Source: Naegleria gruberi (taxonomy: Eukaryota). Taken from it: a stretch of 64,000 bases of DNA. The translations under genes were made by a program, and so were the position numbers. Shown here piece by piece: positions 26,481-63,970 of the stretch. The stretch lies in NCBI GenBank assembly GCA_000004985.1, contig GG738856.1. One strand, 5' to 3'. Below the pieces are notes generated by a model. That model saw nothing but the letters and a program-made list of their open reading frames with translations, made no database searches and was not told the DNA's origin. Every line of letters begins with the position of its first letter. The stretch's first letter is position 1.

Positions 26481-26482
26481 AC

Positions 26483-26489
26483 TTTTTTT
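26483..26489 (+). terminator. Pol III T-run terminator immediately 3' of the tRNA
   Basis: TTTTTTT begins 3 nt after the discriminator base. Confidence 0.6.
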
Positions 26490-26572
26490 ACATTTTTTTT
26501 TATTATAATTGCCAACATTATTTCAACAAGCTAAAAATACTATTGTATTTCCATCTTTCCAAACTTAAAAAA

Positions 26573-32500: not shown

Positions 32501-32698
32501 AACAATAGACAAATTCATGTGAGACCAAATGCCTTCAATACTCTCAAGGATTTAATGACTCAGCTAGCAGATAATAATCTTTTATTAGATGAAACCAAAC
32601 AATTCATTAGACAACAATTGAACGAAGATTTCTTGAAGAGAGTATTGGAACCACTTTTGCATGACCAAATTCAAAACTTTGCTAATACCAAACTTTAA
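26573..32698 (+). CDS. ECM29-like proteasome adaptor (giant HEAT-repeat protein)
   Basis: 2041 aa from ATG 26573. The N-terminal LLTLLGFPEASVRNKVIEVLSNTVNKRV matches the conserved ECM29 N-terminal ...SPxASVRxxVxxxLxNxxxRI block. HEAT-like repeats throughout. The ORF-track start 26456 lies inside the tRNA and is an alternative-start artefact. Confidence 0.6.
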   Translation: MSKQPQAKQVLAIVEKIGTKIAIANGGKSLENLLDNHLVQLLTLLGFPEASVRNKVIEVLSNTVNKRVKLESTTIKLPFGKILELFQKEISNSFIKNFAVIYLDMGFPQLSPSEMTEYLPTFFQVLPLLNSNPSDNTSVSNKQHQAMFLRFIVEAVCNLTYPEKEEDALEKFQEIRNCGTSTLDIFIDFAIDFMLYKPSQKSVGSMQTIYPNGLNVIKIKRILGSRETIEAQELQKRKMNLLEFFTKSACFSENQQFLVLVIGMSQQESTDQLGSRCEVLIKKLSPDYEEPTFIQKLFSIYLGDSSNGISQASLPLKYKILSYLCKSTLAANHFPQTHLVLMDSLFSEYAGMKLRGFGMQFFMWVIQEGTAIEQEYGSEVFRSILSNISRLSSSTNSSTFSMNEIAMLKENMYTALGSFARKFPHFVMDRFDLVERYFDAIAFEDTRIRVAILQGLSNLIYAFKVNFMNNSEEETRAVRVRFENLFYSWVVERNTGLSDLLTGKSTHQNMQLSAKSAVNSAVLRCANSLFPFDNVVSRFLCLFCTAGGFGSGDNVSLSHQIREECLKGTDLDKFTKARQLDHWVINKKGSDSSESSEENVNKLPMFLTVKFSFPTFKSVVGYIFDFMTKFDPAITKSNTMPALNKIVAPSAHSAMIKFCFDCLAEECKLQNVSMLERIEKMSQEMLDDNVKDDFEKFLYVIEKSFDDKVLLYSGTTSNATELLLEASETLLRLLLSLKDKPDYVKYISRRFSFLLDEKGPFLFDLMLGSYNDIAREKFSKFIALLFIFIRQDPEKSSQCEKLIGIWKDYIEKQFGNANTMSDHKGEVCALGSILTLGSIISLNYASQSSSSTEPYLLDAFKLILSILSKIPLTNLREPLHQACYLAVGEMGYSGVLQDYFANYFTPTIDELQFEVSATLPSKEINSMDDLVTLFVKLVERYASSTRQKNSSTTNEKILERLIITVGKVCVGSNKNNDPKVADHVAAIITVLFQLNNVKTTSIPTTGTGGSSNSSEMTATAPQAAFDENISFTVGESLALIGGGLKHCELAKDDPYFVIYNQKNAFSSDEEETEHYDGNLRTVLSRLVRECVLNPKKIVRQASSIWLLAVTKYSGQSNALFKKYIKEVQRAFSLLVTENNEVTSEVAGKGLGYVYEMAENTDRKQLVDSLMNYLIGNKKPQNLAIIEEPEELMLFPAGEEHQKGGKNAPTLSTYKELVDAATDIGRPEMIYQLLAVSNHNAIWNAKKAYAFSMTSILGNLSGTSLLEDKEFEKSLPQLVPKLFRFLFDPNPTISGSMKEMWKSLFGSENDKTKQNMIISKYLPRIMKELLNGLNQELWRIREACCYAICELIGGSSSKTFEEMAPFIKDSFQKVWRVTDDVKDTCRKAAQSALTKLSNFVIKACNPTYTSKRENVSRALAIAIPLLLHEGLIFPFKDVVHSSLATLKEVVHVSTHYIRPHIHEIVSTLLQQMSVLEPAQFNYIQMNAAEYGISVEQLESLRLSAMSRGGPLSEIIMDCERHVDESVLQTLVPSLLEVLQVGVGLQTRAHCAKFIASLGKFHGRYLKDFVNPLDVAIMSAIRQTESMAEKKELATALSQVVKNGKVSEAKRVLVEILNMYTQEGEENENENSADELRMMSALILEQISKNCTILLKRFYDIALPIMFIARHDKSERVRKMWDSVWEESTNTSVKSTLEIHIKVIVDRCIQLLGHPTWELKRQGGSALQEVASALGILLNEKPQEREQMITALLNSITGRLWEGKIVLLKALGSVCETFVSKENQQVSQEMKILDILQKECKKKDVDYRLEALKAYHSAVKNAHFAKFITQEIYETSKSFFLEEMSNMEKEEQEEIKVENENKIAMVNDDKTHYQEKMKRDIKSSKRETSCVQIIHILSYLIPATSQVEQRRKAVDWILDELLAPRLVQYLTPNINNALLTALLQFVKLRIALKAEDPSVLDLTEQKRVFELAIFNLDPNNRQIHVRPNAFNTLKDLMTQLADNNLLLDETKQFIRQQLNEDFLKRVLEPLLHDQIQNFANTKL

Positions 32699-34722: not shown

Positions 34723-36816
34723 TTATTGATGTGTCGACTTGAAACTTTCCACAATCTTTTCAATTCGTTTCATCCACTCTTGTTTCTCACTTTCATTCTC
34801 AGCTCTTATAGCCCACTCTTTAATGTCATCTTCCTCAACTCTAATCTTATAAATTTTAAAACTATACTCCTTCTTTGGATAATCAACAAGTATTACATCC
34901 TTTCCAAAGTCAAATTGAGCTTCAAGCTTCTTTTTACAAATTTCATCATCCTCGAATAATAACAATTGGGTTGCAGTTAGAACAGCATACCTTCTTTTCC
35001 ATGATTTAACCTTTGTTCTTTTCGAAACAAATCCTTTCATTAATATTTGTGATTCATCGACGAGCCCATGTTGCTTGATCTTCTCTGGTTTCAGATCATT
35101 TCTCTCCTTTAACTTTTGGAAGAGAGGTTTCAACACCTCATCGTACTTTTCAATCATCAGGGCTATTATCCTTGTGCCCTTTGTTTGAAGAACAAGGTTG
35201 TTAGACAAGCTTGCTGAACCATCTTGGAATAGGTTTGGAGCAAAAATAATTGCAAGATTGTGTGCTGTCATTTGATTAACATCACTCTTTCTGTGAATAT
35301 TGTACAATAAGTGTAATAATCTATTAAGCAACAGGCAATTATAATATGGGATTATTGAAACATCAGAAAATAGTTTTGTCAGTTCTTTCATAATATCATC
35401 ATCCTTGTCCATTTGAAGCACTTTCTTGAAAACCTCAAATGATTCTGGTGTTAATAGCTTGGCTTGTCTGATATACTTTTTAGTCAGGCCAGTTATTACG
35501 TGAATGTTCAGAGTTCTTAAGTCTACAACCTTACCAGCATCCATCTTTTTAATTAATGCTTCCATTTCTTTCACATTACCTCCAATTCTGAACAATCCTT
35601 CTACGTTCATCTTTTCAGAGATTACAACCATCATTTCTTCAATGATAGCTGGAATTTCGTGTCCTAACTCACTCTTTCTCGACATTACTGTATTTAATTC
35701 CACACCAAATTCCTTACTATCTCCTCTTTTGAATAGTGTTGTGAAGAAATCCTTTGGAACTGTTCCATATCTTCCTCCTTTCATAAAATCATTTCTAATA
35801 CTTTTCTTTCGTTTAACCGAGACCCTTCTTGTGGAAGGTGATGTTGGCGATAATGTAGAATTGGAATCGAGATCACCACTGTTTTTTCTCGTATAGACAG
35901 GTGGTGAGCTGGTACTACTACTTGATTGAGTGACATTGCCTTCCTCATCGATGGTGCAAGTGATTCGTGAAGGTTCCAAAAACCTTCCCATGCTCAATCT
36001 GGCAGGTTGCTTGGTGGAATCATCTGTAGAGTTTGGAATATCTTCATACTCGGGTGTCTCCTCGTGATCACTTGCTGGAGTGGAATACTCTGGCTCACTG
36101 TCATACTCAGACATTGTACCAATAGATGATTTTGAAGGAGTTAGGATATCAAAGTTTTCATTGCCGAGATCATTGATATCTTTAGTATACTCTACTCCAC
36201 CATCTTCATCCTCTTGAAGTTCATCCATTTCTACTCCAGCTTGTTTAAGCAAATCTGAAAACTCCATCACTGAGTTACAACTCAAGTGCTTAGATCTCTT
36301 CTCAACTTTAGATAAGCTATTAGTCACCAGATCAGTGATATGGGCGTATGGTGTTTTGTGTACAAGTTGAGAAAATGGTGATAGTAATGGTGTTCCATCT
36401 TGGGGTGTTGTTTGATCTCCTTCTTGGTGTTGTTGTTCTTCTTCCACTGGCAAGGATGATTCAATATTTGGTTGAAAATCCTCTGTGCTTGTCTCTTCAT
36501 CAACAGAGGTGGTAAATTTCTCAATTTTGGCTGATTTTGGGCTTTGGATATTGGAAAAAGCTTCTTCTGAGTTGAATGATGGTACTGAAGGTGCTGATGA
36601 AGGTGTTTTTGTTGTTGTTTTTATATTGATTGAGCCATGTTTTTCTGAGAAGGAACCTCCTTGCTCATCTCGAATTAATTCATCAGGAGGTAGGGCTGTA
36701 AAGGGAGAATATCTTCTTGATCTTCTAGGCATTGAATTGAGGGCCTTCTCTTCTTCGGCATCCAGAATACTAGTATCATTATTTGTGGGAACTTCGGACA
36801 TGATGTGTTTGTACAA
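34723..36816 (-). CDS. RhoGAP domain protein with C-terminal PH domain
   Basis: RhoGAP core EGLFRIGGN...MTAHNLAIIFAPNLF. C-terminal PH-like region (MKGFVSKRTKVKSWKRRYAVLTATQLLLFED). Real ATG probably at 36801 (MSEVP); the ORF-track start is a TTG. Confidence 0.8.
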   Translation of the reverse strand: MYKHIMSEVPTNNDTSILDAEEEKALNSMPRRSRRYSPFTALPPDELIRDEQGGSFSEKHGSINIKTTTKTPSSAPSVPSFNSEEAFSNIQSPKSAKIEKFTTSVDEETSTEDFQPNIESSLPVEEEQQHQEGDQTTPQDGTPLLSPFSQLVHKTPYAHITDLVTNSLSKVEKRSKHLSCNSVMEFSDLLKQAGVEMDELQEDEDGGVEYTKDINDLGNENFDILTPSKSSIGTMSEYDSEPEYSTPASDHEETPEYEDIPNSTDDSTKQPARLSMGRFLEPSRITCTIDEEGNVTQSSSSTSSPPVYTRKNSGDLDSNSTLSPTSPSTRRVSVKRKKSIRNDFMKGGRYGTVPKDFFTTLFKRGDSKEFGVELNTVMSRKSELGHEIPAIIEEMMVVISEKMNVEGLFRIGGNVKEMEALIKKMDAGKVVDLRTLNIHVITGLTKKYIRQAKLLTPESFEVFKKVLQMDKDDDIMKELTKLFSDVSIIPYYNCLLLNRLLHLLYNIHRKSDVNQMTAHNLAIIFAPNLFQDGSASLSNNLVLQTKGTRIIALMIEKYDEVLKPLFQKLKERNDLKPEKIKQHGLVDESQILMKGFVSKRTKVKSWKRRYAVLTATQLLLFEDDEICKKKLEAQFDFGKDVILVDYPKKEYSFKIYKIRVEEDDIKEWAIRAENESEKQEWMKRIEKIVESFKSTHQ

Positions 36817-42102: not shown

Positions 42103-45100
42103 ATGGCCCAAGAACAAAAAGACAATCACGAAACCAATCATCATCAAGTAAATAGTGATGCAGCATCAGCAGCACAAGTATCGGGATCTTCTGAAAATAC
42201 AAGTGTGAGCAAGGCATCAGTGGCAACCACACAATTGTTCAATTCGGCTATTAATTCTTTTGTTTCTCAAATGGCAGGATCAAAGCCTTCTTCCGATCAA
42301 CAACCATCATCAAATAATAATAGTAATACTAATAGTAACATAACTGAACATTTTGTTGGTTTATCGAATCAAGGAGCGACATGTTATTTAAATTCATTGA
42401 TCCAATCATTGTACCATACACCAGAGTTTCGTCGAATGATTTTGGAGTGGAGATATAATCCTGATAAAGATCCAAGCAAGGAAAGATGTATTCCATATCA
42501 ATTACAAAGACTTTTTGCATATTTGGCTTTATCTAAACGTAAAGCAGTGCCAACTACACACTTGACTAAATCTTTTGGTACGTTATTTCAATCTAATCAG
42601 CTTGTTTTAATTATCATTTTCTTGATCAGGCTGGACACAATCGGATGCTTTCGTTCAACATGATGTACAAGAATTGAATAGAATTTTGTTCGATGCTATC
42701 GATGTATCATTAGCAACTGATAAATTATCTCAAGAAAACCCAATGGAAGGAAAACAAGAAATTGGCAAATTGGCTCACTTTGAAAATATTTTGATTAGTG
42801 AAATGTATAGTGGTATTATGATTGATTATATCGAGGCCAAGGATGAAAGAAGAGAAAATGGACAACCATACGGAAGAGTCAGAGAAGATCTCTATATGGA
42901 TTTGCAACTTGTTGTTCGTGGTATTTCATCAGTTGAAGAGGCTTTGGATTCTTATATTAAACCTGAAATTATGGATGGTGACAATCAGTGGATCTGTGAA
43001 GAATTACAAGACAAGAAAGTTGATGCAGTCAAGGGATTAAAGTTCAAGACTATTCCATACATTTTCACATTGCATCTCAAGAGATTTGACTATGACTACA
43101 CAACATGGAATAGAATCAAATTGGGTAACATGGTAACCTTCCCATTTGAACTCGATGTTTCTAAATATCTGGAGGATAACACTCAAAACGCAATATATGA
43201 ATTATTTGGAGTATTGGTGCACAGTGGTACTTCATCAGGAGGTCACTATTATGCCTACATCAAGAGTTTCTCCTCTGACAAGTGGTACAACTTTAATGAT
43301 AGTAATGTTTCTGAAATTGATAGAGAACAAGTGAAAGTAATGTTTGGTAACAATGACAGCTCTTCTACTGGTAGATTTGCCTCATCAACCAATGCCTACA
43401 TGCTTTTGTATCGTAAAAGGGATGAGAAATTGAATATTAATTCTGTTGACATGTCTATTATTCCAGAAGATTTGAAGGAAGAAGTTGAAAAAGATAATGA
43501 ACAAATTGAGGAGGAGGTCAGAAAGTCAGAGGAATTACGATCAAATATTACAATTAGAGTTAAATCAGAAAACCAACCAATCTTGAACTTGAGTGTAAAG
43601 AAGACAGATACAATGCAACAAGTTTTGGAAAAGGTGTATGAAGCCATGTCAAAAAGAGAGAATTTCTTTACTCGCTTCCATAATTGTAGATTAAGAAAGT
43701 ATGATATCATGAAACAAACCCCAACATCGTCATTCCAAAATCATGCAGATCAACCAATTTCAAGATTCTGTCATTTCAATGGAGCTTTAATTTATCTTGA
43801 GACTAAAGAATCTGACGAAGAATGGAAAGAAATTGCAGAAACCATTTCTGTTTATATCTGTCCTTTCAATCAAGATATTAATGAATTTGATCAACCAAGA
43901 TCCCTCAAAATAACAACAGTACAAACACTTGACGAAATCAAGATGAGAATAGAAGAAGAACTTCAAAGAGAAAAGTATCCTCATGAAAAAATTAATCTTG
44001 TAATTTCTAGAGGTGATGAAGTGATTATTTTCCACAATGAAGAGGAAAGATCCAAATCTATTGAATCTGGTTTGAATATTGCAAATACTGATCTTATTTA
44101 TGTGGAAGCATTGGAAGATCCACTCCAAAATGTTGAATCTAAAATCATTCAAAAATTGGAAGAAATGAAGTATTGTTTTGACATTTTGGTCAATACCATT
44201 GAAAGTCCAAACGATTATACAACCTCTGTAACTGTAGACAAGAGAACTACTGTTGGTGACTTGAAGAAGAAAATTGCAGATATGATGAAGGTAGGAGTAG
44301 ATGATTTCAGACTCTGTTCCAAGACTAGATTCCAACCAATTAAGGAGAATTTACTCATTTCTGAGTGTTCTGAAGTTTTTGAATATTGTCAGCTTCATGT
44401 TGAAAAGGGACAAGCTTTGAAGGATGGAGAATACATTATTCAACTCTATGTTCACTTACCTTGGCTTTCAGAACAACTTCCACAAGAATCTAGAACTGAA
44501 GTAGATATTAATCCTGACAAGATGGTAGCTGAGCCATCTCCAGATTGTCAAGTTATGACTTGCGAACCTCCACCATCATCAACTGCTCTTGTTTTGGCAG
44601 CAGAGAATGGACCAGTTTACAATCCATCTGTGAAGCTTTTGGATAGAATGAACAAGTTGAAGGAAGAAATGAGACTTGTCGATAAGGTTGTTATCAGTGC
44701 TCAAGAAACTTTGGGAAGTTTCAAACAAAGAATATTCGAAAAATACTTTTCCGATCCAGAATCTGACCAATTTGTCCCATTAGAGTTAATGAGATTGAGA
44801 ATGAAACTTGGAGTTTTCTTCCAAAAGATTTTGATCAATGACGAAAAGACATTGAAGGAAAATATTCCAGACCTTGCTAACAATAAGCAAATTGTTGTTC
44901 AATTTCTGGAAAAGCCAGAAAATTTGAAAGAAGGTGATTTGACTATCAAGGTTCAAAGGTGGCAACCATTATCTTGGAGTTTCTATGGAGGTTCAGATGC
45001 CAAATTTGAAGTAATTATTCCAAAGCAACAAGAACCACTCACACCTCAAGTATTCAGATCACTCATTTATAATGCCCTGAAGGATACTGTCTTGTCAGAT

Positions 45101-45574
45101 GTTCCTCCTGAAAGAGTTGACCAAATTGGTATTTCCCGTGCACCACACCAATTTGATTACTTTATCATTAAGGAATGCATTCAAGTTGCAATTTTGAATT
45201 ATGAGGAAATTGATACACTCAAGGATTTACACAAGCCACCTTTCATTTTGGCTCAAGACGATATTATGATCATTAGACTAAAGGATGAACTCGATAAGTA
45301 TGATATGACTGAACTAAAGACTAAGAGAGCATCAGCACCAAGTAGTACTGGCCGTGTTGAGAAGGCTCTCAAGATTAATGTTATTGATAAGGAAACTGAA
45401 CAAAAAGAAGAGGAAGAAAGAAAAAAGCAACAAGAGCAACAACAAGCTTCATCCACCAGTGCTAGTGGTGAACAAACTACTGTCAATGGTGGTGATAAGA
45501 TGGTTGACGATACAGCTCCAACCAGTACTGGAACTGAAGAAAATCCAAAGAAGAAAATGAAATCAGACGAATGA
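42103..45574 (+). CDS. Ubiquitin carboxyl-terminal hydrolase (USP family, USP7/USP47-like); exons 42103..42577 and 42630..45574
   Basis: Cys box GLSNQGATCYLNSLIQSLYHT. Junction SFG|WTQSDAFVQHDVQELNRILFD across GTACGT..GATCAG. His box YELFGVLVHSGTSSGGHYYAYIKS...KWYNFNDSNV. Long C-terminal region. Confidence 0.85.
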
Positions 45575-50030: not shown

Positions 50031-52537
50031 ATGACTAAAGTTCAACCTGTTCATGATGACAATAAGAAGGTAAGTTTCAAAACAACTTTACTAACATTCA
50101 AATCAAGCAAAATAAAAATGAAGATTTGCTTCTCTTAGATGGTGAAAAGGAAAAGCTTTGCGAAAGAAAGAAAATCATTCTCAAATCTTGCATTTCCATG
50201 AGATTAATCATTACCTTATTAATCATTCTCCTCTTGACGGCATGCTCCATCCTTACCTGGTTAGCTTCCTTCATTGGATCTATAACTGCCTTAGAAGAAT
50301 TATCCCAGAATCTTGTTTCTAGAGTTGGAGAGAAGGCCATTACTTACATTGATAGTCAACTGGATCCTGTTGTGAAACTTTCATCAAGTTTTGCAGCTGA
50401 CATTACCAACGGATCAATTTCTCTTCAACCCTCCATTAGCAACTTGTATCAAAAAGCAACAATCTACAAAGCATCAAGTGTTGGTGTTTTCTATTCACAA
50501 AGTTTGTACTCTGTTGTTTGGGCAGGTGTTTATCCGAATGAAGTATTGACCTATTCAGAGGCAATTCCTGGTCTAGTTTATTGGAAATTGGATGCTAGCA
50601 ATGGAAATGTGGTCTCAGTGTTCAAAAATACGTCTACTATTCCTTTTTCAATCACTTCTCAAGCGTTCTGGGCTGGAAGTTTTGCATTATTCAACTCAAC
50701 TGGTGCTGAAACGATTCTTGGAGCTCCGTATGTGGTAATCAATTCAGGAGTAGTGATTTATTGTTCTACAAAGATTTACGATCCAGTATTGATGGTTCAA
50801 GGAACAAAAAAAGTTATTGGAATTGCAAAAGTCAACTTGACCTTAAAGACCGTTCAGGATTTTTTACAGAAATTGTCCGTGATTGGAAATGGATACATAA
50901 TATTATCAGAAACGAATAACAATGTGATCGGAGCTTCTATTAACTCAACTGCAACTGATGGAGTGTCTAGAATTTCCTTATTTGACCTTACTGATAAAAA
51001 CGCTGGTCAACTGATGACAGATCTCAAAAATCAATATGGAGATATGAGCAAAGTTCCATCCTATAGCCAAATAACTAGTAAGGGAGTAGAATATTTCGTT
51101 TCCAAAATGGACTACCAATATCTCAATGTTCGTTGGAATCTGTATATGGTAATTTACAAATCTGATATCCAAAGAGTTACCAATATTAATACTGGTATCT
51201 CAGTTGCTGTTGCAGTTGTAGTTATTGGAGTGGGTATCATTTGTGGTGTCTTTATTGGACATATTGTAACGAAACCTCTCAGATTCCTTGAAGATCAATT
51301 TTCAAAAATCAAAACTTTTGATTTGAATTCTTGTAATTTCATTTCAAGCCAATTCAAAGAAGTTGATAGAATTTATGAGCATTTGTATGATATGGTCACT
51401 TGGCTTAATGAATTCAAGTCCTTCCTCCCAGAGAGTGTCTTTAATCAACTCAAACATATGGAACTAGTTGAAGATTCGAAACAGCACTCAGCAACTATTC
51501 GACAAAGCGTCCATGATTCACAAGCCATGATGTCCAGTGCTCAACTATCTTCCAAGCATTCTGGAAAATCAAGTAATCTCCAATCTGGCTTGGGAGGAAT
51601 TACTTCTGGAGGTTTATTTAAGGTTGGATTATCCACGAATAAGGTAACAATAGTCTGTGTTAAACTATTTGGGTTTTCTAATGAGAATTCCATGCATGAT
51701 TTATCGTTGCTATTCTCAAAGATTGCTTCCTGCCTTTCAAACTTGTCCAAAACTATGCAAGTCACTGATATGAAGATTAATTCTGTCGATGAATTTCAAT
51801 TATGTTTTACAAATGACAAGAAGAAGAAATCAGAATTTTTGGCCTTAGATGCAAGTTTGAAAATTGCAAAGGCATTGAATAATATTACTGGAAAGTCGGG
51901 TCAGAAAATTGATTATTCAATTGGTGTTTGTTCTGATTTGGCAAATATTGGAAATTTGGGAACTAGTTCACTAAGATATTTTTCAATTGTTGGTTCTGTG
52001 GTTGACAATGCCAAGATAATTGCATTATTGGGACATTCTAGTGCTAGCAGAGTTCTTGTGGATGGAAATACTCTGACTAATGTCAAGGAACAATTCGTAT
52101 ACAAACCTGTGGATCGATTGGAAATGGAACTACACTCTAAAAAGACAATTTGTTCGATTTTTGAAGTGATTAGAGAGAATGTTGTTAATCAAGATGAATG
52201 GCTATACGAATTGGATCAATCGAATAGTAATAATAAGTATTTAGAGTTACAATCTATTTTCCATCAACTATTCGAAAGTTCATCATCCATTTCATTCGAA
52301 ACTTTGAATGATTTCCGATCTAAACTTTCCCAATTCATGAATGAACATCCACAAGAAAGTTCAAACATGACCAAGACTTTAGAATTCTTAGAAATGGTTT
52401 TACAATGCTCTTCAGAATCTCAATCCCATGAAATGCTAAATAATTACAAAACTGTTTTGGAGAAACATTTGACCACTCTTTCTAAATACACCTATTCTGA
52501 TTCCGATGTTATTGTAACCAAAATTAAAATTGATTAA
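50031..52537 (+). CDS. ACG-like sensor/transmembrane protein with degenerate (probably inactive) class III cyclase-homology domain; exons 50031..50069 and 50108..52537
   Basis: Same TM-sensor-TM-HAMP-like layout as the gene at 1..2065 (ITALEELSQNLVSRVGEKAITYI vs ITANQIENLVVTSAVEKANTYV; LKTVQDFLQKLSVIGNGYIILSETNNNVIG vs IKQLVEFVQSFKFSTNGILGIIELNKNGDG; TKPLRFL vs SRPLGYF). The cyclase-like region (VTIVCVKLFGFSNE ... IDYSIGVCSDLANIGNLGTSSLRYFSIVGSVVDNAKIIA) lacks the metal-binding Asp and the GD motif. A 5' mini-exon MTKVQPVHDDNKK plus a 38-nt GTAAGT..CAAG intron is proposed; alternatively the start is internal (MRLIITLL..). Confidence 0.55.
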
Positions 52538-52597: not shown

Positions 52598-55500
52598 TTA
52601 ATTGTCCACAATCCTTTCATTCCATTCCTCAATCTTTTGTAAAATTTCATTAATGTTTGGTCTTTCCTTTGGGTCATGACTCCATGATTGTCTAATGAGT
52701 AAAGTCATTTCAAAAATGATATCCGAGTGGTAGTTCAACACTTCGTTCCTAGGTAGGAATGTTTCACACCAAGTTTGACATTCCTCTGCAGTAGAAAATG
52801 GAATGACAGGTCTCAATCCTTCTTCACAAACACTCTTATGGAATTGATATGAGCTATTAAATACATTTGGTTTGGATAATTTCAATTTTTGAAGAGCTCT
52901 TGCGTCCATACTTTGATATGGTTCTGTTATTTCGAATATTAATTGCCACATTACAATAGCCAAACTGTAAATATCAATTGATCGAGCATCATTTCTACCA
53001 ATATCTCCCGAAAAGAGTTCAGGACTGTTTCACCACCATATTATTGATATTGCACAATTATAAATCCATTCAGAAAAAAACTAACCTCATATAATTACTC
53101 GTTCCAATATGATTGGTGAGGGCTGAAATGCTGTGAGAAGACAAGACTCTTCCCAATCCAAAATCACACAACTTGGCAGTTCCATTCTTGTCTAAAAGAA
53201 TATTTGCTGGTTTCAAATCTCTGAATAATTGTGGACTAATTAAAAAATACTGAGATAGATCAAACATACCTGTGGACAATAAAGTTCGGCTCCAAACAAT
53301 GTAGATAATTGATTCCACTGGCTACATTGAGTAGAATGGACAGTTTCAGTTGAAGTGAACACTTCAATTGGTGTAATTCCAAGCTTCTAATCAAGGATTC
53401 CAAACTCTTATCCATATATTCCATTGCAATAAACCTCTTTGTGGGTGTTGATGAAATACCATAAAAATTGATAATGTTGGGATGTCTCAATTTGGACAAT
53501 AGAATGGCTTCAAATTTGAAATCATCTTCTGAAATATTAATATTATTCAAGTCAAATACTTTGACAGCAATAATAATTCCATTATATTTGGTTGAAAAGA
53601 CACTTCCCATTCCTCCTTCTCCAAGTCTCTGAGTTAAAAATGGTAAATTAGAACTAAGAATATGAATAACGTACCTTAATTGGTTTGTCCATGTGTAACA
53701 GCTCAACAGGAATAATAAAATTCTGCTCCTCCTCACTGGTTGGCTTGGATCCAGAGCCATTACTTGTATATTCCATTTCAGATTGAGATAAGAGTCTTTG
53801 ATCTAAAGTGAGGTCAGTATCATTTATCCTCTTTTGCTTTCTGTACTTCCTTGTGATGAAAATCAAGACAACTGAAATGATTGCAATGACCAATGCAAAA
53901 AATCCTATCAGTCCAAGAACAATTCCCAACATTAAATTGCTGTATTCACATCTCTCTCCACCAAAGCCTTCCTTACATTCGCACATATCATGCTTTACAC
54001 AATTTCCATTACGATTGCAAGCTTCAGATCCAGATATTCCAAAACAAATTGCAATTTGACATGAAACACCTGTATATCCAATACTACAATTACAATTATT
54101 TGGAGAAATACAAGTTCCATTAGAAGAACAAACAGACTGGCTTTCACTGGAAATCCCATTACAAATAGGATATTGACATTGAGAGCCAGAAAATCCAGCA
54201 TGGCACACACACTTGTTATATTCAACACACGTTCCATTTCCGCCATTGCACGAAGTGCTTTCATTTGAAGCAATGCCAAAGCATGTGGCTATACATTCTG
54301 TCATTGTCATACTAAGGACATACCCATCTTTGCAGTAGGGTTTCATCTTGTATATGACATTATATTTGGAATCTGAAATGTAGATTTCACCTTTTCCATC
54401 ATTGGAAAATGTAATACCTTCAGGAATTCCCAATGGAGCACTCACTGCTGACAATTCCATATTAGAATAGTATAGACCTCCATAGGATGTGTCTGTTCCA
54501 TTTCCAGCAATTGTTGTAATTATTCCATCTTTGATTCTTCTAATTCTACCATTGTTAGAATCTGAGAAAATGATATCCTCGTATGGAGGAATGAGCTTTA
54601 AAAATGTTGGACTGTTAAGTTGGGCGTTTTTAGCAGGTAGTCCATCTCCACTAAATCCCTTAATACCTGTTCCAGCCAATGTTGAAATTGTTCCATTTTT
54701 GTAAACTATTCTAATTCGGTGATTGTTTCGGTCAGAAAATATGATGTCCCCTGTGATTTTTGAATAAGCAATACCAGATGGGTAGGCCAAAGATGTTTGT
54801 AATGAATTAATATCATCTGCATAGAATCCATATCCACCATTTCCAGCGATTGTGTGCACAATTCCATTTCTAATCATCCTAATCATGTTATTCGTTACAT
54901 CAGTGAAATAAATGTCATTATTTGGTGCGATGGTCAATCCAAGACAATTTCCAATAGCATTTTCAGAAGGACCTAAATCTCCAACTCCTCCAGCAAGTAT
55001 TTCTATTGTCTTTTTCATAGTATAGACTCGAATTTTATCATTTCTAGTATCGGCCACTAGTACCATCTTCTCCTCTAAGGAATTTGCTACTGCATGAACA
55101 GACATAGGCCCATTAATTTTGGCAGTAAGTGCTGAATCGCCATCTCCCTCAAATCCAGGAAATCCTGTCTGGCTAACAACTGTTCTAATGTTGAAATCAG
55201 TTGTTGAAATGGCCCTAATCTTATTGTTAAATGTATCAGCTTCAAGAAATGTTAATTATTGAATGGATAGAAAAACAGAACTTACCAACATAAATGTCTG
55301 AATACCCATAACTGACACTGTGAGGATAAAAGAGCTGACTTCTGATAGCTGGACCTTCATCACCACTACTTCCATCAATTCCTGTTCCTGCAAGTGTTTT
55401 TACTGTTACATCTGTAATCACTCTAATTCTATGATTATTTGTATCCTTTTAGTAACTTGTTAATGTTTCCAATATGTGATAAAACTTACAGCAACAATTA

Positions 55501-57518
55501 AACCCATTTGTGCTGAAATGACACCCATTGGGTTATTGAATTGAGTTTCGAGTGGTAATTTACCATCTCCATTGTAACCTGGTTCTCCAGATCCAGCAAC
55601 TGTTGAAACTATTCCAGTAGATAACGTAATTTTACGAATAACATGATTATTAGAGTCTGCAACATAAATAGCACTATATTCAGCATGTATTCCTGAAGGG
55701 TGGTTGAAAGTGCTGTTCAATGCTATTCCATCTATATGTCCTTTAATACCTGGTTGACCAGCAATAAGTGAAACAGTTTTTGATAGCAAGTGAATACGCC
55801 ACACACAGTGATTACTATCCGAGAAGAATATATATGTTTCTCCTTCACGTCTAAGTGTAGTAATGCCAGATGGTCCACTAATTCCATGATCCTTCTTATT
55901 TGCAATTGTTGAAATAGTTCCATTTGTTGAGCTGATCATTAACACACGATCATTACTCGTATCTGACACAAAAATCAAAATATCATTTGAAGAGGCAAAA
56001 GAGGAGACTCCTGATGGTCTGTTCAGTACTGAGGATTTGACATTGGTTGGTGCATCTCTTGAAGTGGAAAATTTGTTTCCAAATAAAATGGAATGGCTAG
56101 CAGTATTTGATTTGTTGAGTTTGACAAGAAAGTTTACAGTCCAATAACTAATATCATTTGAAATTAGTAAATTTGAATTCAAGTCCAATGCTATTGAGTA
56201 TGGGTTAGAAATTATTGGTGTTGCTCGATACGGTTCATCTTGTGAGAGTGGAACTAATGTATTTTCAACTATTCCAATATTTCCATCTGAGAGTGTGTAA
56301 TTGAGTATTGATGCGGATCCAGATTCCAGAATTAATAACGATGGAGAGCCGCTACTATCTGAATAGATCAAATCTTTGGGTGACCTTAGTAAAAATGGTG
56401 CTTTCATATCTTTTGCATTCATATTAAAAACTCTCATTCCATTCTTTGAAAATAGAGATGAAATAATGCCAGTTTTCAAATCAATTTGTCTTATATGGTT
56501 AATTCCTATCAACCACAATTTACTTCCAATAACAGAAAGTGAATTCAAAAAATTAATGGAAGCGTCAGTGGCTAAACCTCCATCCCCTGAATCTCCTGAT
56601 GTTATAAAAGCACCACCTATTGATGTAGTATTCATTCCAATGATGGAAGATCCCGAGTACTTGACAGTGGTTTTAAATATTTGAAAGTCTGGAAACTTAA
56701 AATAGTAAAAAGACTCGACACTGTCAATAATTTCATTATTGTCAAGCTCAAATGTCAAAAAGTTGCTGCTGCCACTAAGTGAGATGATTGTCGTTATGTT
56801 TCCACTTGTATGATGTAATTTCCTTATAGTGTACAAAGCAGCAATGTACAAATCATTGTTTGAATTGACATGAATAGAATTAATATGTAACAAGTCGTCA
56901 AATCCTGGAATCTTTTTCACAGAGGACTGTCTCTCATCGATTTCATAAATTCTCGTATAATCTGAATAGTAAATAAGAATCAGGTCATTCTTTTTGTGAA
57001 CAGAAAGTAAACCCAACAAGCAAAATGTCATTTCACTCAATTGTGTAGTTGTTTGCGAATCACAATCACAGGATCGACCACCAGCTATAATCACAGAACT
57101 CCCACTAGTAGCATTATATTTAACTAGATTACAAACACCAGCTTCTTCCTTCATACAGTAAAATATATCATTTCCATTCTCATTGATTGGTTTAGCCAAA
57201 TATCCAACAGTTTCCAAAATTGTTTCCACACCCCCATCTGTTAAATTTAATCTCATCAATGACCACACCGATGTAGAAACATATCCACCGAGGTAGACTA
57301 TTTGTTCGGGATGTTGAAATGATTCATAAACCATCTTGACTTCATACTTGAGCCATGGTTTTGTCTTGTTGCTGGTGGCCAAGTAATGGCTTGATGGTAT
57401 ATTGGACACCAACACTAGAACCATCAGTGGGAGAGGTGTATCCACTCGCAACCATCACCAGCATCCAAGTTATGGCAATGAGAAAATAAAGATTGTAATG
57501 GATTTGCTGTCGTCTCAT
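52598..57518 (-). CDS. Receptor-like protein kinase: signal peptide, multiple NHL repeats, EGF-like repeats, TM, Ser/Thr(-Tyr-like) kinase. Minus-strand exons about 55490..57424(57518), 55286..55445, 53675..55239, 53270..53628, 53086..53220, 52598..53024.
   Basis: NHL repeats (..NHRIRIV.., ..NGRIRRI.., ..NHVIRKI..). Cys-rich EGF-like modules (CNGGNGTCVEYNKCVCHAGFSGSQC...). TM LGIVLGLIGFFALVIAIISVVLIFI. Kinase subdomains LGEGGMGSVF, AVKVF, HRDLKPANILL, DFGLGR, SPELFSG, WSHDPKERP. Introns 44-61 nt with GTAAGT/GTACGT/GTATGT/GTTAGT donors; phases checked against the ORF track. The 5' end is uncertain (see finding). Confidence 0.7.
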
Positions 57519-57982
57519 TTTTTTGTGAACATTCAATCCCATTTTGATATTCGGATCAAATTCCTTGTAAAAGTTTAAATCCACATCATCATCATATGAG
57601 ACATAGATAATATTATCTAATTTCAGACAGAAAAATATTATTAATATTTTGCAAGAGTGGACCAATGATAGTACGAAAAGGTGGCATGAATTAATTGCTG
57701 GAAAACAACCAATTTATAATCCATCATGAAAATTTCTTCTACTATTTAATTCTGATTTAGCAGGGTGATGAAATCATGATGAGTAATTACCCATTGTTTT
57801 TTTTTTGTTGAATATTTAACGGTCGGAACAAACAACTTTCAGCGGTTTTGGTTGGCGCGAAATTACCCTTCCTTTATGAGTGAATGTTAGTGAACCAAGA
57901 GAATGTTGAGTCATAAGTGGATGTAGAGCAATAAATATTCAGAAATAGTATCAAAACTGATTGAATGTTAGGAAGTTTCCAT

Positions 57983-58816
57983 TTATTTGTTAAACAATGT
58001 TTTTAGAGAATAGAGAACCAAGCCAGTCAACCCAATTTTCACAATTGTTTTCAATACTTTCCAAATAATAAACAAAGTTGGAGAAAGAGTTTCCTTCAAC
58101 ATTTCATCAATATCCAACTTGGTTGGGATTTCTCTTTTAGAATTGAGATTAAAACTTCTATTTCCTTGAAGTTTTTCATCGAATAGAGATCGCAATAGGA
58201 AAGAGGCAACATCCTGACGAGTAACTTTGGATGTGCCTTTCGGATAATTATTATCCTCTCCAAATTCGAAATCTAGAGTTATTGGTGAGTCCACCAATTG
58301 AGGAGGTCTTACAATGGCATAAGTAATTTTGGAATCTTTGGTCAATTGGCACAAAGCTCTTTCAGAATTTGCCAAATCTTGATAAACATTGTGGATAATA
58401 TACTTTTTAAGGATATTATCAAAAAACCATGATTGTTTCACATCGAGAATGCCAGCCGACGTAATAATTGCAATTCTCATTGGCTTATCCTGTTTTAACA
58501 TTGCTTTAACTGTATTTGAAACTCCAGTTTCTACTAACGTTGTCTTTCCAATAGTTTTTGATCCGAGTGAACTAATCACATGAGTAACTGATGAACTAAT
58601 CAACTCTTCCACATCTTCCAAACGAGTAGCATCTCCCTTCACAATTGTCATCAATTCTCCAAAATCCTTCTTCAAATACGAAAGCATACTAGGATTCCTG
58701 GCCAACACTCTCACTTTCATTCTATTCGAAAGGAGTAGTAAGAGACATTGCTTGCCAACTCCTTGAGTAGCTCCAAGAAGTGCAATTTCACCAACAGTTG
58801 AATTAAATTGAGACAT
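57983..58816 (-). CDS. NAD(P)-binding Rossmann-fold protein (NmrA/atypical-SDR/BLVRB-like) with hydrophobic C-terminus
   Basis: N-terminal IALLGATQGVGKQ dinucleotide-binding motif. 277 aa. C-terminal hydrophobic stretch LFIIWKVLKTIVKIGLTGLVLY. Confidence 0.5.
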   Translation of the reverse strand: MSQFNSTVGEIALLGATQGVGKQCLLLLLSNRMKVRVLARNPSMLSYLKKDFGELMTIVKGDATRLEDVEELISSSVTHVISSLGSKTIGKTTLVETGVSNTVKAMLKQDKPMRIAIITSAGILDVKQSWFFDNILKKYIIHNVYQDLANSERALCQLTKDSKITYAIVRPPQLVDSPITLDFEFGEDNNYPKGTSKVTRQDVASFLLRSLFDEKLQGNRSFNLNSKREIPTKLDIDEMLKETLSPTLFIIWKVLKTIVKIGLTGLVLYSLKTLFNK

Positions 58817-62188: not shown

Positions 62189-63970
62189 TTAAAGATCTGC
62201 ATCTTCAATCAGAGAATTTTCAATAAGAATAAACAATGCCTCCAAATCATCTTGTTTTTGTAAGAGTTCAATACTTGCAGTGTCTAATCTGAAAGATTTA
62301 TCTCTCAATCGAATAAATCTGATGGCCTTAACAAGAATGTCAAAGATGATGTGTTTGTGGGCCTTGTATGTCTTATTCCTCAATCGATCAATCATTGAAT
62401 TAATATCACAGAATAGTGAGAGAATAAAGACTGCATGCATGATGAATTTTCTCGTATCAACGTCATCGTTGGAAGAAATTGTGAGAATATAATCGAAAAG
62501 AGTGGAAACTACATTGTCGTTCACTCGTTCAGATTTGAGCATACCAATGGCCTTAATGGCATGTAAACGAAGAATGACCATTGATCTTCCTTCCTCGATG
62601 ATTCTCAATAAGAGAGATTGAACTACCTTTTCATCGTTATAATTTGCAACGTATCCTAAAGATTCGGCACAGAGAGCTCTGATTACTTCTGGAACTTCAC
62701 GATTTTCCAAACGTTCCATCAAGTGTTGGACAATGTTTTGTGCACCCCTTTCTGATTTTCTACCCAACAAACGAACTGAAACTTCCACCACACCAATGTC
62801 AGTATGTTTCAATAATTGAATAAAAGTATCAATGACTGCTTGATTGTTTGTATGACTAATCTTTTCCAAAGTTGTTGTACATGAGGTAATAACTTCCTCT
62901 GATTCTGAGAGAAGTCGCTTACAAAGAATTTCAATGATTTTCTGATCACCTTTCTTTGCAATTTGAGCAAGAGCAATGGCACTCTGTTCTCTGTTTACAT
63001 CCTTGGATGATCTGTTTGAAAATTGTTCCAAGAGTGCACAAATGACAACTTCATCCTCCTTTGGAGCTGAATATCCAAGTGCACAAATAATTCTGTCAGG
63101 TTGAGATGAGGTCTTTAACATTTGAAGGAGTTTGCTAACAAGGGCAGGATCCTTTCTTTGACTGATAGATCCCAAGGCCATTGCAACTCGGTATGCAATT
63201 GACTTTCTTTCATTTTCCAACATGTTCAATAATCTGTACTGAATAACAGGCAACAAATCAGGAATAACAACTGCAGAGAATGCTTCACTGACAATCATGT
63301 CATCAAAACTGCTTTCTTTCAAACAATCAATGAGTGTATCAATAATTTCCATGTCACCCTTTTCGGCTAATTTACCCAAGCAAATACAAGCTTCATAACA
63401 CTTGTTCGAAACCTTGGTCAATTCAGAAATAACAAGCGGATCACCATATTTTGCAACAGATCCCAATCCAATACAAGCAACCTTTCTAAAGTTGTAATCG
63501 TTCAACATTGGAATCAACATGTTAATAATTGTCGAATCTTCTTTCTCTGCAACCTTTGTAATTGCTTCAATGGCTGCTTCAATAAGAGGAACGTTGGCTT
63601 TGTTGCTTGTACCCTTTGGAGTATTGTTAATAATATTAGTTAGGGCTGAAATAACCGCCTTGTCACCTCTATCAGCCAATTTACCAATACAAATGCAAAG
63701 TCTCTTTCTAATATTGATATCCTTGGTTTCTTCCAATTTCTTAATGAGAATCGAGACGAATTTTTGTTCTCCCTTTGGCATAATAATTGAAAGTGCATGA
63801 ATAGCATATTCGTTGGTTTCTACGTGTTGTAAAAGCCCATCACCAATCTTTTCGAATAATTGATTGTACATGAACGATCTAGTAATTGCCTTATTTCTCA
63901 AATCTTCTGATTTGTGAATGAGTCCTTGCACAATCATTGAGACATTCTCATCAGTCTTTAATTGCTTCAT
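62189..63970 (-). CDS. HEAT-repeat (PBS-lyase/E-Z type) protein
   Basis: About 12 repeats of the ~30-aa pattern ..V(R)..A..ALG.IAkkGD..VI..L...L.D...; ATG at 63970. Confidence 0.5.
   Translation of the reverse strand: MKQLKTDENVSMIVQGLIHKSEDLRNKAITRSFMYNQLFEKIGDGLLQHVETNEYAIHALSIIMPKGEQKFVSILIKKLEETKDINIRKRLCICIGKLADRGDKAVISALTNIINNTPKGTSNKANVPLIEAAIEAITKVAEKEDSTIINMLIPMLNDYNFRKVACIGLGSVAKYGDPLVISELTKVSNKCYEACICLGKLAEKGDMEIIDTLIDCLKESSFDDMIVSEAFSAVVIPDLLPVIQYRLLNMLENERKSIAYRVAMALGSISQRKDPALVSKLLQMLKTSSQPDRIICALGYSAPKEDEVVICALLEQFSNRSSKDVNREQSAIALAQIAKKGDQKIIEILCKRLLSESEEVITSCTTTLEKISHTNNQAVIDTFIQLLKHTDIGVVEVSVRLLGRKSERGAQNIVQHLMERLENREVPEVIRALCAESLGYVANYNDEKVVQSLLLRIIEEGRSMVILRLHAIKAIGMLKSERVNDNVVSTLFDYILTISSNDDVDTRKFIMHAVFILSLFCDINSMIDRLRNKTYKAHKHIIFDILVKAIRFIRLRDKSFRLDTASIELLQKQDDLEALFILIENSLIEDADL

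What the first reader, a model, noticed from the sequence alone, without database searches (positions are those of the whole stretch)
52598..57665. NHL-repeat/EGF receptor-like kinase with an unresolved 5' end (competing start codons in two frames)
This six-exon gene encodes an extracellular NHL beta-propeller region, tandem EGF-like modules, one TM helix and a cytoplasmic protein kinase (HRDLKPANILL, DFGLGR). That receptor-kinase architecture is uncommon outside animals and plants. At the 5' end the best signal peptide (MRRQQIHYNLYFLIAITWMLVMVASG, ATG 57518) is in a different frame from the long exon-A frame. The exon-A frame has only an internal ATG at 57424 followed by a weak hydrophobic stretch, and no canonical intron reconciles the two frames. 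This points to a frameshift, a sequencing error or an unusual start.
Basis: partly seen in the sequence, partly recalled or inferred. Interest (0 to 1): 0.5.

Follow-up and report, generated by a model that had tools for sequence, protein, structure and literature searches.

The report
Naegleria receptor kinase with 2-bp frameshift
This is an already catalogued but uncharacterised Naegleria gruberi gene for a membrane receptor kinase, and its confusing start comes from two missing bases in this genome copy that cut the secretion signal off from the rest of the protein.

Summary
A six-exon, minus-strand gene (CDS 57542..52598) encodes signal peptide, about 1000 aa of NHL-type beta-propeller blades, three EGF-like modules, one TM helix and a complete TKL-like Ser/Thr kinase.

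The window is the Naegleria gruberi NEG-M reference. The gene is NAEGRDRAFT_64922 (XP_002679804.1, 'predicted protein'). That RefSeq model lacks both the N-terminus and the last exon.

The two-frame 5' end is now explained. A syntenic metagenome contig, 98.7% identical, reads GACACAAAACC where the window reads GACAAAACC (between 57363 and 57362). With those two bases, one ORF runs from ATG 57542 through the signal peptide into the propeller region. A 51%-identical N. gruberi paralogue (XP_002673836.1) matches the signal-peptide frame before the indel and the long-exon frame after it.

It is the only indel in 4.7 kb of CDS, and pN/pS is 0.17. So this is either a recent loss-of-function deletion in NEG-M or an assembly error. 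It is not an unusual start, a cryptic intron or recoding. Which of the two cannot be decided without reads.

Relatives with the same design occur in N. gruberi (at least three genes with the full design, plus one EGF-only relative) and N. lovaniensis. Interest is low: an ordinary lesion in an unstudied, lineage-specific receptor-kinase family.

The parts
52598..57542 (-). Whole coding region of NAEGRDRAFT_64922 from first ATG (57542) to stop TAA (52600-52598). Exons: 57542-55490, 55445-55286, 55239-53675, 53628-53270, 53220-53086, 53024-52598. Repaired with 2 bp, it encodes 1566 aa.
   Evidence: Identified via cluster members XP_002679804.1/EFC47060.1.
57362..57365 (-). Frameshift site. The window reads CAAG-ACAAAACC. 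The related allele L001 reads CAAGACACAAAACC, so 2 bp (one AC unit) are missing between 57363 and 57362.
   Evidence: blastn alignment of window vs L001. Inserting AC gives one uninterrupted 4701-nt CDS.
57342..57344 (-). Premature TGA that ends the signal-peptide frame in the window allele. The product is the 66-aa peptide MGLNVHKK...GHQQQDKTMAQV.
57441..57542 (-). Signal peptide region MGLNVHKKMRRQQIHYNLYFLIAITWMLVMVASG. A second in-frame ATG is at 57518. It has a basic n-region and a hydrophobic core, and ASG|Y fits the -3/-1 rule.
   Evidence: Hydropathy. Continuous with the mature protein in P0001. Analogous signal peptides in the paralogues P0123, the L004 gene and P0309. The cleavage site is inferred, as no SignalP was available.
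57332..57424 (-). Neither is followed by a signal peptide.
56015..57440 (-). Divergent N-terminal beta-propeller-like region (aa 35-510). It is shared with paralogue XP_002673836.1 at about 51% identity.
   Evidence: The AF2 model shows 4-stranded blades here but at low confidence.
54335..56014 (-). Canonical NHL (teneurin-type) repeat region, aa 511-1040. It spans introns 1 and 2 (55489-55446, 55285-55240) and has 7 strict [hydrophobic]-A/S/T-D-x2-N-x2-I-R motifs.
   Evidence: Pfam NHL. Motif scan. PDB sequence hits: teneurin-like protein 9pt5 E=2.8e-71, NHLRC2 4e-30, SOQ1. AF2 pLDDT above 80 over ectodomain residues about 450-700, and Foldseek match to 6g7w with TMt 0.75.
53942..54334 (-). 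Three EGF-like modules (20 Cys, aa 1041-1171).
   Evidence: Pfam EGF_2 and EGF_Teneurin above cut-off; EGF_TEN below its cut-off. Cys spacing.
53855..53935 (-). Single transmembrane helix LMLGIVLGLIGFFALVIAIISVVLIFI, followed by the basic stretch TRKYRKQKR (positive-inside, so type I topology).
   Evidence: Kyte-Doolittle maximum 3.25. It is the only internal hydrophobic segment.
52631..53689 (-). Protein kinase domain (aa 1256-1556), spanning introns 3-5. Motifs present: GEGGMGSV, VAVK (K1283), HRDLKPANILL (D1381), DFG (D1399), SPE and DIYSLA. It is an RD-type, Ser/Thr-type catalytic loop.
   Evidence: Pfam Pkinase 3.8e-45. Motif positions. Best PDB hits CTR1, TAK1, TNNI3K, SOBIR1, IRAK4.
53025..53085 (-). 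Intron 5 (61 nt). The RefSeq model reads into it (...SNYMRLVFF*) and so loses exon 6, which is 142 aa of the kinase C-lobe.
   Evidence: The spliced product matches the paralogue (YMSPELFSG...). L003 has a 1-nt deletion inside this intron, which shows it is non-coding.

Best explanation
What the gene is. The locus is the Naegleria gruberi NEG-M gene NAEGRDRAFT_64922. It encodes a type I single-pass receptor-like Ser/Thr kinase with this layout:
- a cleavable signal peptide;
- an ectodomain of about 1000 aa built from roughly 16-17 NHL-type beta-propeller blades, probably three propellers;
- three EGF-like modules;
- one TM helix;
- a 55-aa juxtamembrane segment;
- a catalytically complete RD-type kinase of TKL character.

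Why there are two 5' frames. The window sequence lacks 2 bp (one AC of GACACAAAACC, between 57363 and 57362) compared with the ancestral intact reading frame. The signal-peptide ORF therefore ends after 66 codons, and the remaining 1500 codons sit in the +1 frame. The true start is ATG 57542 (or 57518), not 57424 or the RefSeq start at 57334.

Shown here: the indel, the intact allele, the paralogue support for both frames, the domain content and the splice structure.

Inferred:
- The deletion is either a recent loss-of-function mutation in NEG-M, possibly on one haplotype, or an assembly error. I put these at roughly even odds.
- The intact protein works like other receptor kinases. A ligand binds the propeller/EGF ectodomain, this drives oligomerisation, the activation loop (SSHSISALTNHIGTSNYMSPE) is trans-phosphorylated, and the kinase signals downstream.
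- The frameshifted allele, if real, is a null. Without its signal peptide, a 1100-aa N-terminal domain cannot be translocated.
For: Identity of the locus:
- Cluster members XP_002679804.1 / D2V7U0 [Naegleria gruberi] match the window-encoded protein.

The indel:
- L001 covers 58293-55382 and includes the 3' end of the upstream NAD-binding gene, so it is the same locus. It is 98.67% identical and carries the 2 extra bases.
- Its product P0001 reads ...GHQQQDTKPWLKYEVKMVYESFQH... in one ORF.
- Inserting AC gives a 4701-nt CDS with a single terminal stop.

Paralogue support:
- P0123 aligns to frame 1 up to the indel and to the exon-A frame after it.

Selective constraint:
- There are 29 CDS substitutions against L001/L003: 18 synonymous and 11 non-synonymous, giving pN/pS 0.17.
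- This is the only CDS indel in 4.7 kb. By my count from the table, there are about 8 indel events in about 750 nt of introns and intergenic DNA.

Domains, TM and motifs.

Kinase character:
- Best PDB hits are CTR1, TAK1, TNNI3K, SOBIR1 and IRAK4.
- Named database hits are plant Raf-like kinases EDR1 and SIS8.

Propeller fold.

Same architecture, with a signal peptide, in relatives:
- XP_002673836.1.
- The L004 gene.
- N. lovaniensis XP_044551476.1.
Against: - There are no reads or transcripts, so a real mutation cannot be separated from an assembly error.
- The intact allele comes from a metagenome assembly (ENA ERZ929261) of an N. gruberi-like organism, not from NEG-M itself.
- Neither ORF product of the frameshifted allele is on record in any other assembly. 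A JGI metagenome pattern scan found nothing.
- The AF2 ectodomain model is poor overall (pLDDT 58), so the blade and propeller count is approximate.
- Signal-peptide cleavage, kinase activity, ligand and topology are untested.
- The TKL assignment rests on best hits, not on a phylogeny.
Confidence: 0.88

Rival explanations
1. Unusual but genuine start. Translation begins at ATG 57424 (MVLVLVSN...) or at 57334 (the RefSeq model, MVYESFQH...). The upstream signal-peptide ORF would then be a coincidental or regulatory uORF.
For: These ATGs exist in the long frame, and RefSeq uses 57334.
Against: - Neither N-terminus has a signal sequence. The only hydrophobic segments are the upstream signal peptide and the TM helix, so the propeller/EGF ectodomain could not reach the surface.
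- The frame-1 peptide VQYTIKPLLG is conserved in the paralogue (VKYTIQPLFG).
- The near-identical allele fuses the two frames.
- All three complete relatives start with a signal peptide.
Confidence: 0.04
2. A short unconventional intron removes 3n+1 bases and joins the signal-peptide frame to the exon-A frame. Candidates are 57445-57415 (31 nt, GTGGAT..CTAG) and 57413-57365 (49 nt, GTTGGT..CAAG).
For: 40 GT/GC..AG pairs formally restore an open frame. The 49-nt candidate falls within the gene's intron size range of 44-61 nt.
Against: - The candidate donors do not resemble the gene's donors (GTAAGT, GTACGT, GTATGT, GTTAGT).
- The candidates are 47-52% GC, against 25-28% for the real introns.
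- They would delete or replace the residues conserved with the paralogue.
- The same splice would break the frame in the intact allele L001.
- Real introns carry non-3n indels between alleles. This stretch carries only the 2-bp gap.
Confidence: 0.02
3. Programmed +1 ribosomal frameshifting, for example at GTA-TGA-A at 57347-57341, fuses the two frames during translation.
For: The required shift is +1. A stop codon in the 0 frame is placed so that skipping one base enters the long frame.
Against: - There is no known shift-prone motif or stimulatory element here.
- The exon-A-frame residues KPWLKY upstream of that stop are conserved with the paralogue, so the frames are meant to join at the indel, not at the stop.
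- The sister allele needs no recoding.
- None of the paralogues needs recoding.
Confidence: 0.01
4. The NHL/EGF region and the kinase are two separate genes.
For: Prokaryote-style gene callers split the metagenome orthologues into several ORFs.
Against: - Exon 3 (55239-53675) is one continuous ORF that runs from NHL repeats through the EGF modules, the TM helix and the juxtamembrane segment to the first residues of the kinase domain, just upstream of its glycine loop.
- The splits coincide with the short introns.
- RefSeq proteins XP_002673836.1 and XP_044551476.1 carry both parts.
Confidence: 0.01

Closest known systems
Naegleria gruberi XP_002673836.1 (D2VPZ6, 'protein kinase', 1543 aa) and N. 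lovaniensis XP_044551476.1 (1239 aa)
   Same: Same order of parts: signal peptide, NHL/TEN_NHL propellers, EGF, TM, kinase. The kinase carries the same long C-lobe insert (...GLRPxIPFS...W...). Identity to XP_002673836.1 is 51% over the N-terminal 645 aa.
   Different: These are paralogue or orthologue-level relatives and are themselves uncharacterised. N. lovaniensis has one EGF module, and the L004 gene has four. The window copy is the only one with a broken 5' frame.
Mycobacterium tuberculosis PknD (Ser/Thr receptor kinase with an extracellular six-bladed NHL beta-propeller sensor); comparison from my own knowledge, not tested here
   Same: A Hanks-type Ser/Thr kinase joined through one TM helix to an extracellular NHL beta-propeller that is presumed to bind a ligand.
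   Different: PknD has the opposite topology (N-terminal kinase inside, C-terminal propeller outside). It has a single propeller, no EGF modules and no signal peptide, and it is bacterial. It did not appear among the sequence hits to solved structures.
Teneurins and teneurin-like proteins (PDB 9pt5, 9ifo)
   Same: These are the best solved-structure sequence match to the NHL region (E=2.8e-71). The EGF modules hit the teneurin-type models EGF_Teneurin and EGF_TEN.
   Different: No Pfam family other than kinase, NHL/propeller and EGF models was hit, so nothing matches a YD/Rhs shell or a toxin domain. EGF_TEN scores 39 bits, below its 65-bit cut-off. Teneurins are, from my own knowledge, type II proteins without a kinase. 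Only the domains are shared, not family membership.
Animal propeller-plus-EGF receptors: Sevenless/ROS1 receptor tyrosine kinase and the LRP4/LRP6/LDLR family
   Same: The ectodomains are built from several six-bladed beta-propellers interspersed with or followed by EGF modules, then a single TM helix. Sevenless also has a cytoplasmic kinase. These were top Foldseek hits to the model (8s9p LRP4, LRP2, LRP6, 9bfq Sevenless).
   Different: Those propellers are YWTD-type, not NHL. Sevenless is a tyrosine kinase, whereas here the catalytic loop HRDLKPAN is Ser/Thr-type. The resemblance is analogy, and the structural model is low-confidence.
Plant Raf-like MAPKKKs (CTR1, EDR1) and TAK1/MLK, IRAK/RLK-Pelle kinases (TKL group)
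   Same: These are the closest kinase-domain sequences (CTR1 E=2.6e-31, TAK1 2.8e-26, SOBIR1 2.5e-24, IRAK4 1.6e-23; EDR1 and SIS8).
   Different: CTR1 and TAK1 are, from my own knowledge, soluble proteins. Plant RLKs use LRR, LysM or lectin ectodomains. Identity is only about 30-40%, and no phylogeny was made.

Membership tests
Eukaryotic protein kinase superfamily (Pfam PF00069), catalytically competent | Pkinase profile match above the gathering score | tested here: met
   154.8 bits against a cut-off of 31.7, covering profile positions 4-260 of 263.
Eukaryotic protein kinase superfamily (Pfam PF00069), catalytically competent | Gly-rich loop, VAIK Lys, alphaC Glu, HRD Asp, DFG and APE-like motifs all present | tested here: met
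   GEGGMGSV 1263, K1283, FEAILL, HRDLKPANILL 1379, DFG 1399, SPE 1425. The SPE motif and the C-lobe need exon 6, which RefSeq omits.
TKL group kinases | Kinase domain groups with TKL families (MLK/Raf/IRAK/RIPK/LRRK) rather than with other groups | tested here: inconclusive
   The best PDB hits are nearly all TKL: CTR1, TAK1, TNNI3K, SOBIR1, IRAK4, DLK, ZAK, RIPK2 and Roco4. This is a best-hit test only; no tree was made.
RLK/Pelle (plant receptor-like kinase / IRAK) family | Kinase domain specifically closest to RLK/Pelle/IRAK members | tested here: not met
   SOBIR1, IRAK4 and CERK1 score lower (86-89 bits) than the soluble kinases CTR1 (112 bits) and TAK1 (95 bits). The gene works like an RLK but is not shown to be one.
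Receptor tyrosine kinases | Tyr-kinase catalytic loop HRDL(A/R)A(A/R)N and TK-group affinity | tested here: not met
   The catalytic loop is HRDLKPAN, which is Ser/Thr-type. Pkinase scores above PK_Tyr_Ser-Thr.
Type I single-pass receptor kinase architecture | N-terminal signal peptide, one TM helix, ectodomain N-terminal and kinase C-terminal to the TM helix | tested here: met
   This is met for the repaired or ancestral ORF. It is not met for the window sequence as it stands, because the signal peptide is out of frame. Signal-peptide cleavage was not tested, as no SignalP was available.
NHL-repeat beta-propeller | NHL profile above the gathering score and a six-bladed propeller fold | tested here: met
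   NHL 54.2 bits against 20. Seven strict motifs. AF2 confident segment, with Foldseek match to the NHLRC2 NHL domain 6g7w at TMt 0.75, rmsd 3.3.
Teneurin family | EGF_TEN above the cut-off | tested here: not met
   EGF_TEN scores 39.1 bits against a cut-off of 65.
Teneurin family | YD-repeat shell/Tox-GHH and type II topology | tested here: not met
   No YD/Rhs family appears among the Pfam hits, and the topology is type I.

The most novel reading that the evidence does not exclude
Naegleria would carry a genus-specific family of receptor kinases whose ectodomains are assembled from teneurin-type NHL propellers and EGF modules. This would be an independent invention of the 'multi-propeller + EGF + kinase' receptor design known from animal Sevenless/ROS1 and LRPs, perhaps used to sense prey bacteria or other cells.

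On this reading, the 2-bp deletion is a genuine loss-of-function allele that arose in the long-term axenic laboratory strain NEG-M, where such sensing is dispensable.
Probability: 0.25. Interest if true: 0.45.

Novelty: new member of a known kind. Interest (0 to 1): 0.2.

Why it matters
Practical value. The RefSeq/UniProt model of NAEGRDRAFT_64922 (1359 aa) is wrong at both ends. It lacks the signal peptide and 142 aa of the kinase C-lobe, so automated surveys would classify it as a soluble, truncated kinase. A corrected 1566-aa model places it in a small Naegleria family of NHL/EGF receptor-like kinases.

Biological value. I found no paper describing receptor Ser/Thr kinases of this type in Heterolobosea. 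If the deletion is real, NEG-M is a natural knockout, or a heterozygote, for one member. The frameshift itself is an ordinary lesion or error and not a new mechanism.

Tried and rejected
- Independent sightings of the frameshifted allele. I looked up the exact 66-aa and 654-aa ORF products in public assemblies; neither is on record. So there is no independent confirmation of the deletion.
- JGI metagenome scan. The pattern GGCCACCAGCAACAAG-N{1,8}-AAACCATGGCTCAAG gave 0 hits.
- Lookup of P0128 (NAEGRDRAFT_32030). Its context was not on record.
- Family census by exhaustive HMMER. A search with aa 367-1566 was swamped by giant bacterial and eukaryotic NHL/EGF repeat proteins. Only P0309 and P0384 among the top 150 reach into the kinase. 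The family's distribution outside Naegleria is therefore not established.
- AF2 on the 1111-aa ectodomain with an 18-sequence alignment. The overall pLDDT was only 58. The EGF region and the first 50 residues are unmodelled, so I use the model only for the all-beta blade pattern and the confident propeller.
- Literature. There are no papers for PRJEB11402 and none combining NHL repeat, EGF, kinase and Naegleria.
- Other genes and RNAs. There are no tandem paralogues in the window, and no tRNA or Rfam hits.
- Explanations considered and rejected: a cryptic intron, +1 recoding, internal initiation and a two-gene model. See the rival explanations.

Full report
**1. What is there**

The region lies in AT-rich (about 35% GC), intron-poor eukaryotic DNA. 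On the minus strand, five short GT..AG introns split one gene into six exons:

- Introns: 55489-55446, 55285-55240, 53674-53629, 53269-53221 and 53085-53025.
- They are 44-61 nt long and 25-28% GC.
- Their donors are GTAAGT, GTAAGT, GTACGT, GTATGT and GTTAGT.
- The ORF ends at TAA 52600-52598.

My first guess for the intron 1 acceptor gave a stop codon. Moving it to 55446 restores the NHL motif ...LIVADTNNHRIRVI....

Comparison with two metagenome alleles supports the introns. Every indel except one falls in the predicted introns or the intergenic spacers, including non-3n indels in introns 1 and 5.

**2. Identity**

A protein search with the N-terminal 645 aa found two close relatives:

- P0001 is 99% identical and comes from an ENA metagenome contig.
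- P0002 is 51% identical and comes from the same sample.

Their 90% clusters contain Naegleria gruberi RefSeq proteins. XP_002679804.1 (NAEGRDRAFT_64922, 'predicted protein', 1359 aa, D2V7U0) is the window gene. XP_002673836.1 ('protein kinase', 1543 aa, D2VPZ6) is a paralogue. So the window is the NEG-M reference genome.

The RefSeq model starts at MVYESFQH (ATG 57334). It ends ...SNYMRLVFF*, meaning it reads into intron 5 and loses exon 6. The spliced sequence YMSPELFSGDIGRNDARSIDIYSLAIVMWQL matches the paralogue's YMSPELFSGEIGRDDARSIDIYSLSIIMWQL.

**3. The 5' puzzle**

- The signal-peptide frame starts at ATG 57542 (MGLNVHKK) with a second ATG at 57518 (MRRQQIHY...). It stops at TGA 57344-57342.
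- The long frame is +1 relative to it, and its first ATG is 57424.

Contig L001 settles the question.

- It spans window 58293-55382. This includes the 3' end of the upstream NAD(P)H-binding gene, so it is the orthologous locus.
- It is 98.67% identical to the window.
- It reads CAAGACACAAAACC where the window reads CAAG--ACAAAACC.
- With those two bases, one ORF encodes MGLNVHKKMRRQQIHYNLYFLIAITW.LVM..SGYTSPTDGSSVGVQYTIKPLLGHQQQDTKPWLKYEVKMVYESFQH....
- Inserting AC between 57363 and 57362 gives a 4701-nt CDS of 1566 aa with a single terminal stop.

The paralogue provides independent support. Its sequence ...TASSTGYTPVKYTIQPLFGQKNTSWLDYDIRKVYPSFQH... aligns to frame 1 before the indel (YTI.PL.G) and to the exon-A frame after it (WL.Y...VY.SFQH).

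The window allele is therefore derived from an intact frame by loss of one AC unit.

**4. Rivals for the 5' end**

- *Cryptic intron.* Forty GT/GC..AG pairs formally restore the frame. This includes a 31-nt candidate (57445-57415) and a 49-nt candidate (57413-57365). Their donors (GTGGAT, GTTGGT) and composition (52% and 47% GC) do not match the gene's introns. They would remove residues conserved with the paralogue. They would also break the frame in the intact allele.
- *Programmed +1 frameshift at GTA-TGA-A.* This is formally possible but nothing supports it. The conserved KPWLKY lies upstream of that stop in the +1 frame.
- *Internal initiation at 57424 or 57334.* This gives a protein with no signal sequence.
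- *Two separate genes.* This is excluded. Exon 3 is one ORF running from NHL repeats through the EGF modules, the TM helix and the juxtamembrane segment to the start of the kinase domain.

**5. Real mutation or assembly error?**

Across the whole gene, the window differs from L001 and L003 (99.0% identical, 55520-52033) as follows:

- There are 29 CDS substitutions: 18 synonymous and 11 non-synonymous, giving pN/pS of 0.17.
- There is exactly one CDS indel in 4.7 kb.
- By my count from the table, there are about 8 indel events in about 750 nt of non-coding DNA.

The gene has therefore been under purifying selection, and the frameshift is either very recent or artefactual.

I found no independent NEG-M data. 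The ORF products of the frameshifted allele are not on record elsewhere, and a JGI metagenome pattern scan found nothing. I cannot decide between the two and rate them about equal.

A real lesion would be plausible in a strain kept axenically. A pangenome paper reports ploidy variation and loss of heterozygosity in the N. fowleri and N. lovaniensis strains it analysed (PMC9928731). A heterozygous deletion captured by the consensus is therefore conceivable.

**6. The protein**

- *Domains.* Pfam finds NHL, EGF_2 and EGF_Teneurin above their cut-offs and EGF_TEN below its cut-off. It also finds Pkinase at 3.8e-45.
- *Membrane segments.* Only two hydrophobic segments exist: the signal peptide (aa 14-36) and a TM helix (aa 1174-1200) followed by TRKYRKQKR. 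This predicts type I topology.
- *Ectodomain.* It has 14 N-glycosylation sequons, seven strict NHL motifs (aa 627-972) and 20 Cys in three EGF-like modules.
- *Structure model.* The AF2 model of the ectodomain is weak overall (pLDDT 58) but confident over one propeller. It shows 4-stranded blades throughout, about 16-17 in total. Foldseek returns multi-propeller/EGF receptors (LRP4, LRP2, LRP6, Sevenless) and NHL propellers (NHLRC2 6g7w at TMt 0.75, and SOQ1).
- *Sequence relatives of the NHL region.* It is closest to solved 'teneurin-like proteins' (E=2.8e-71).
- *Kinase.* It has every catalytic motif: GEGGMGSV, K1283, HRDLKPANILL, DFG and SPE. It is RD-type with a Ser/Thr-type catalytic loop. 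It is closest to the TKL kinases CTR1, TAK1, TNNI3K, SOBIR1 and IRAK4 and to the plant Raf-like kinases EDR1 and SIS8.

**7. Mechanism (inferred)**

The intact protein should be a surface receptor. The propeller/EGF ectodomain would bind an unknown ligand. Clustering would then trans-phosphorylate the Ser/Thr-rich activation loop of the RD kinase. As assembled, the window allele would produce a 66-aa secreted peptide and, at best, an internally initiated cytosolic protein. Functionally, that is a null.

**8. Family and novelty**

The same design occurs in several relatives:

- XP_002673836.1 has a signal peptide, NHL, EGF, TM and kinase.
- A third N. gruberi-like gene on L004 has a signal peptide, NHL region, four EGF modules, a TM helix and a kinase.
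- NAEGRDRAFT_32030 is probably a fragment of a related gene.
- NAEGRDRAFT_63569 has an EGF-only ectodomain plus a kinase.
- N. lovaniensis XP_044551476.1 has a signal peptide, TEN_NHL, one EGF module, a TM helix and a kinase.

Kinase-less NHL/EGF proteins also exist in N. lovaniensis.

Single-pass TM Ser/Thr/Tyr kinases are reported to make up a large proportion of the TM kinases of most protists (PMC10463195). The architecture class is therefore not rare. No paper I could find describes this particular NHL+EGF combination in Naegleria. I rate it a new, uncharacterised member of a known kind. The gene itself is already in public databases.

**9. Surroundings**

The neighbours are ordinary eukaryotic genes:

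- NAD(P)H-binding protein (57986-58816, minus strand).
- Cu-ATPase (3073-6543).
- RdRP (8131-11313).
- DOCK GEF (11533-17445).
- ECM29 (26456-32695).
- USP (42674-45571).
- RhoGAP-PH (34726-36816).
- HEAT/Arm protein (62192-63970).

There is no paralogue in the window, and there are no tRNAs or Rfam RNAs.

**Verdict**

The finding is of low general interest (0.2). Its main value is a corrected gene model.

Noticed in passing
window 53025-53085 and 57334; RefSeq XP_002679804.1: The public gene model is mis-annotated at both ends. It starts at the second downstream Met (57334). It also reads through intron 5 to a stop (...SNYMRLVFF*), which drops exon 6 (53024-52598), or 142 aa of the kinase C-lobe.
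   Followed up: yes
window 55446-55489 (intron 1); L001 and L003 overlap at 55520-55382: The two metagenome contigs that tile the gene overlap in intron 1 but differ from each other there. Relative to the window, L001 has +5 nt and L003 has -4 nt. This suggests two haplotypes or strains of an N. gruberi-like amoeba in sample ERZ929261, which probably explains why the assembly broke at this point.
   Followed up: partly
window 50126-52537 (+): This is an 803-aa ORF with no Pfam match at E<=1e-5. It is convergent with the kinase gene, and only about 60 bp separate the two stop codons. That 60-bp spacer holds several indels between alleles.
   Followed up: no
window 57575-57604 (minus strand): A short upstream ORF, ATGTCTCATATGATGATGATGTGGATTTAA (MSHMMMMWI*), lies 33 bp upstream of ATG 57542 in another frame. 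It could be a uORF if the 5' UTR extends that far.
   Followed up: no
window 8131-11313 (+): A eukaryotic-type RNA-dependent RNA polymerase gene (Pfam RdRP, 5.7e-49), which points to RNAi machinery in this genome region.
   Followed up: no
L004 (ENA ERZ929261 k127_28152) 449-4816; P0384 = XP_002681046.1: There are further members of the Naegleria receptor-kinase family with different ectodomains. The L004 gene has a signal peptide, a different NHL region and four EGF modules. NAEGRDRAFT_63569 has an ectodomain made only of many tandem EGF modules and a kinase with large inserts.
   Followed up: partly
window 57799-57810 and 57735: The 5' intergenic spacer shows length polymorphism between alleles: a poly-A run with a 2-nt difference and a 4-nt AATT indel. 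This contrasts with the indel-free CDS.
   Followed up: partly
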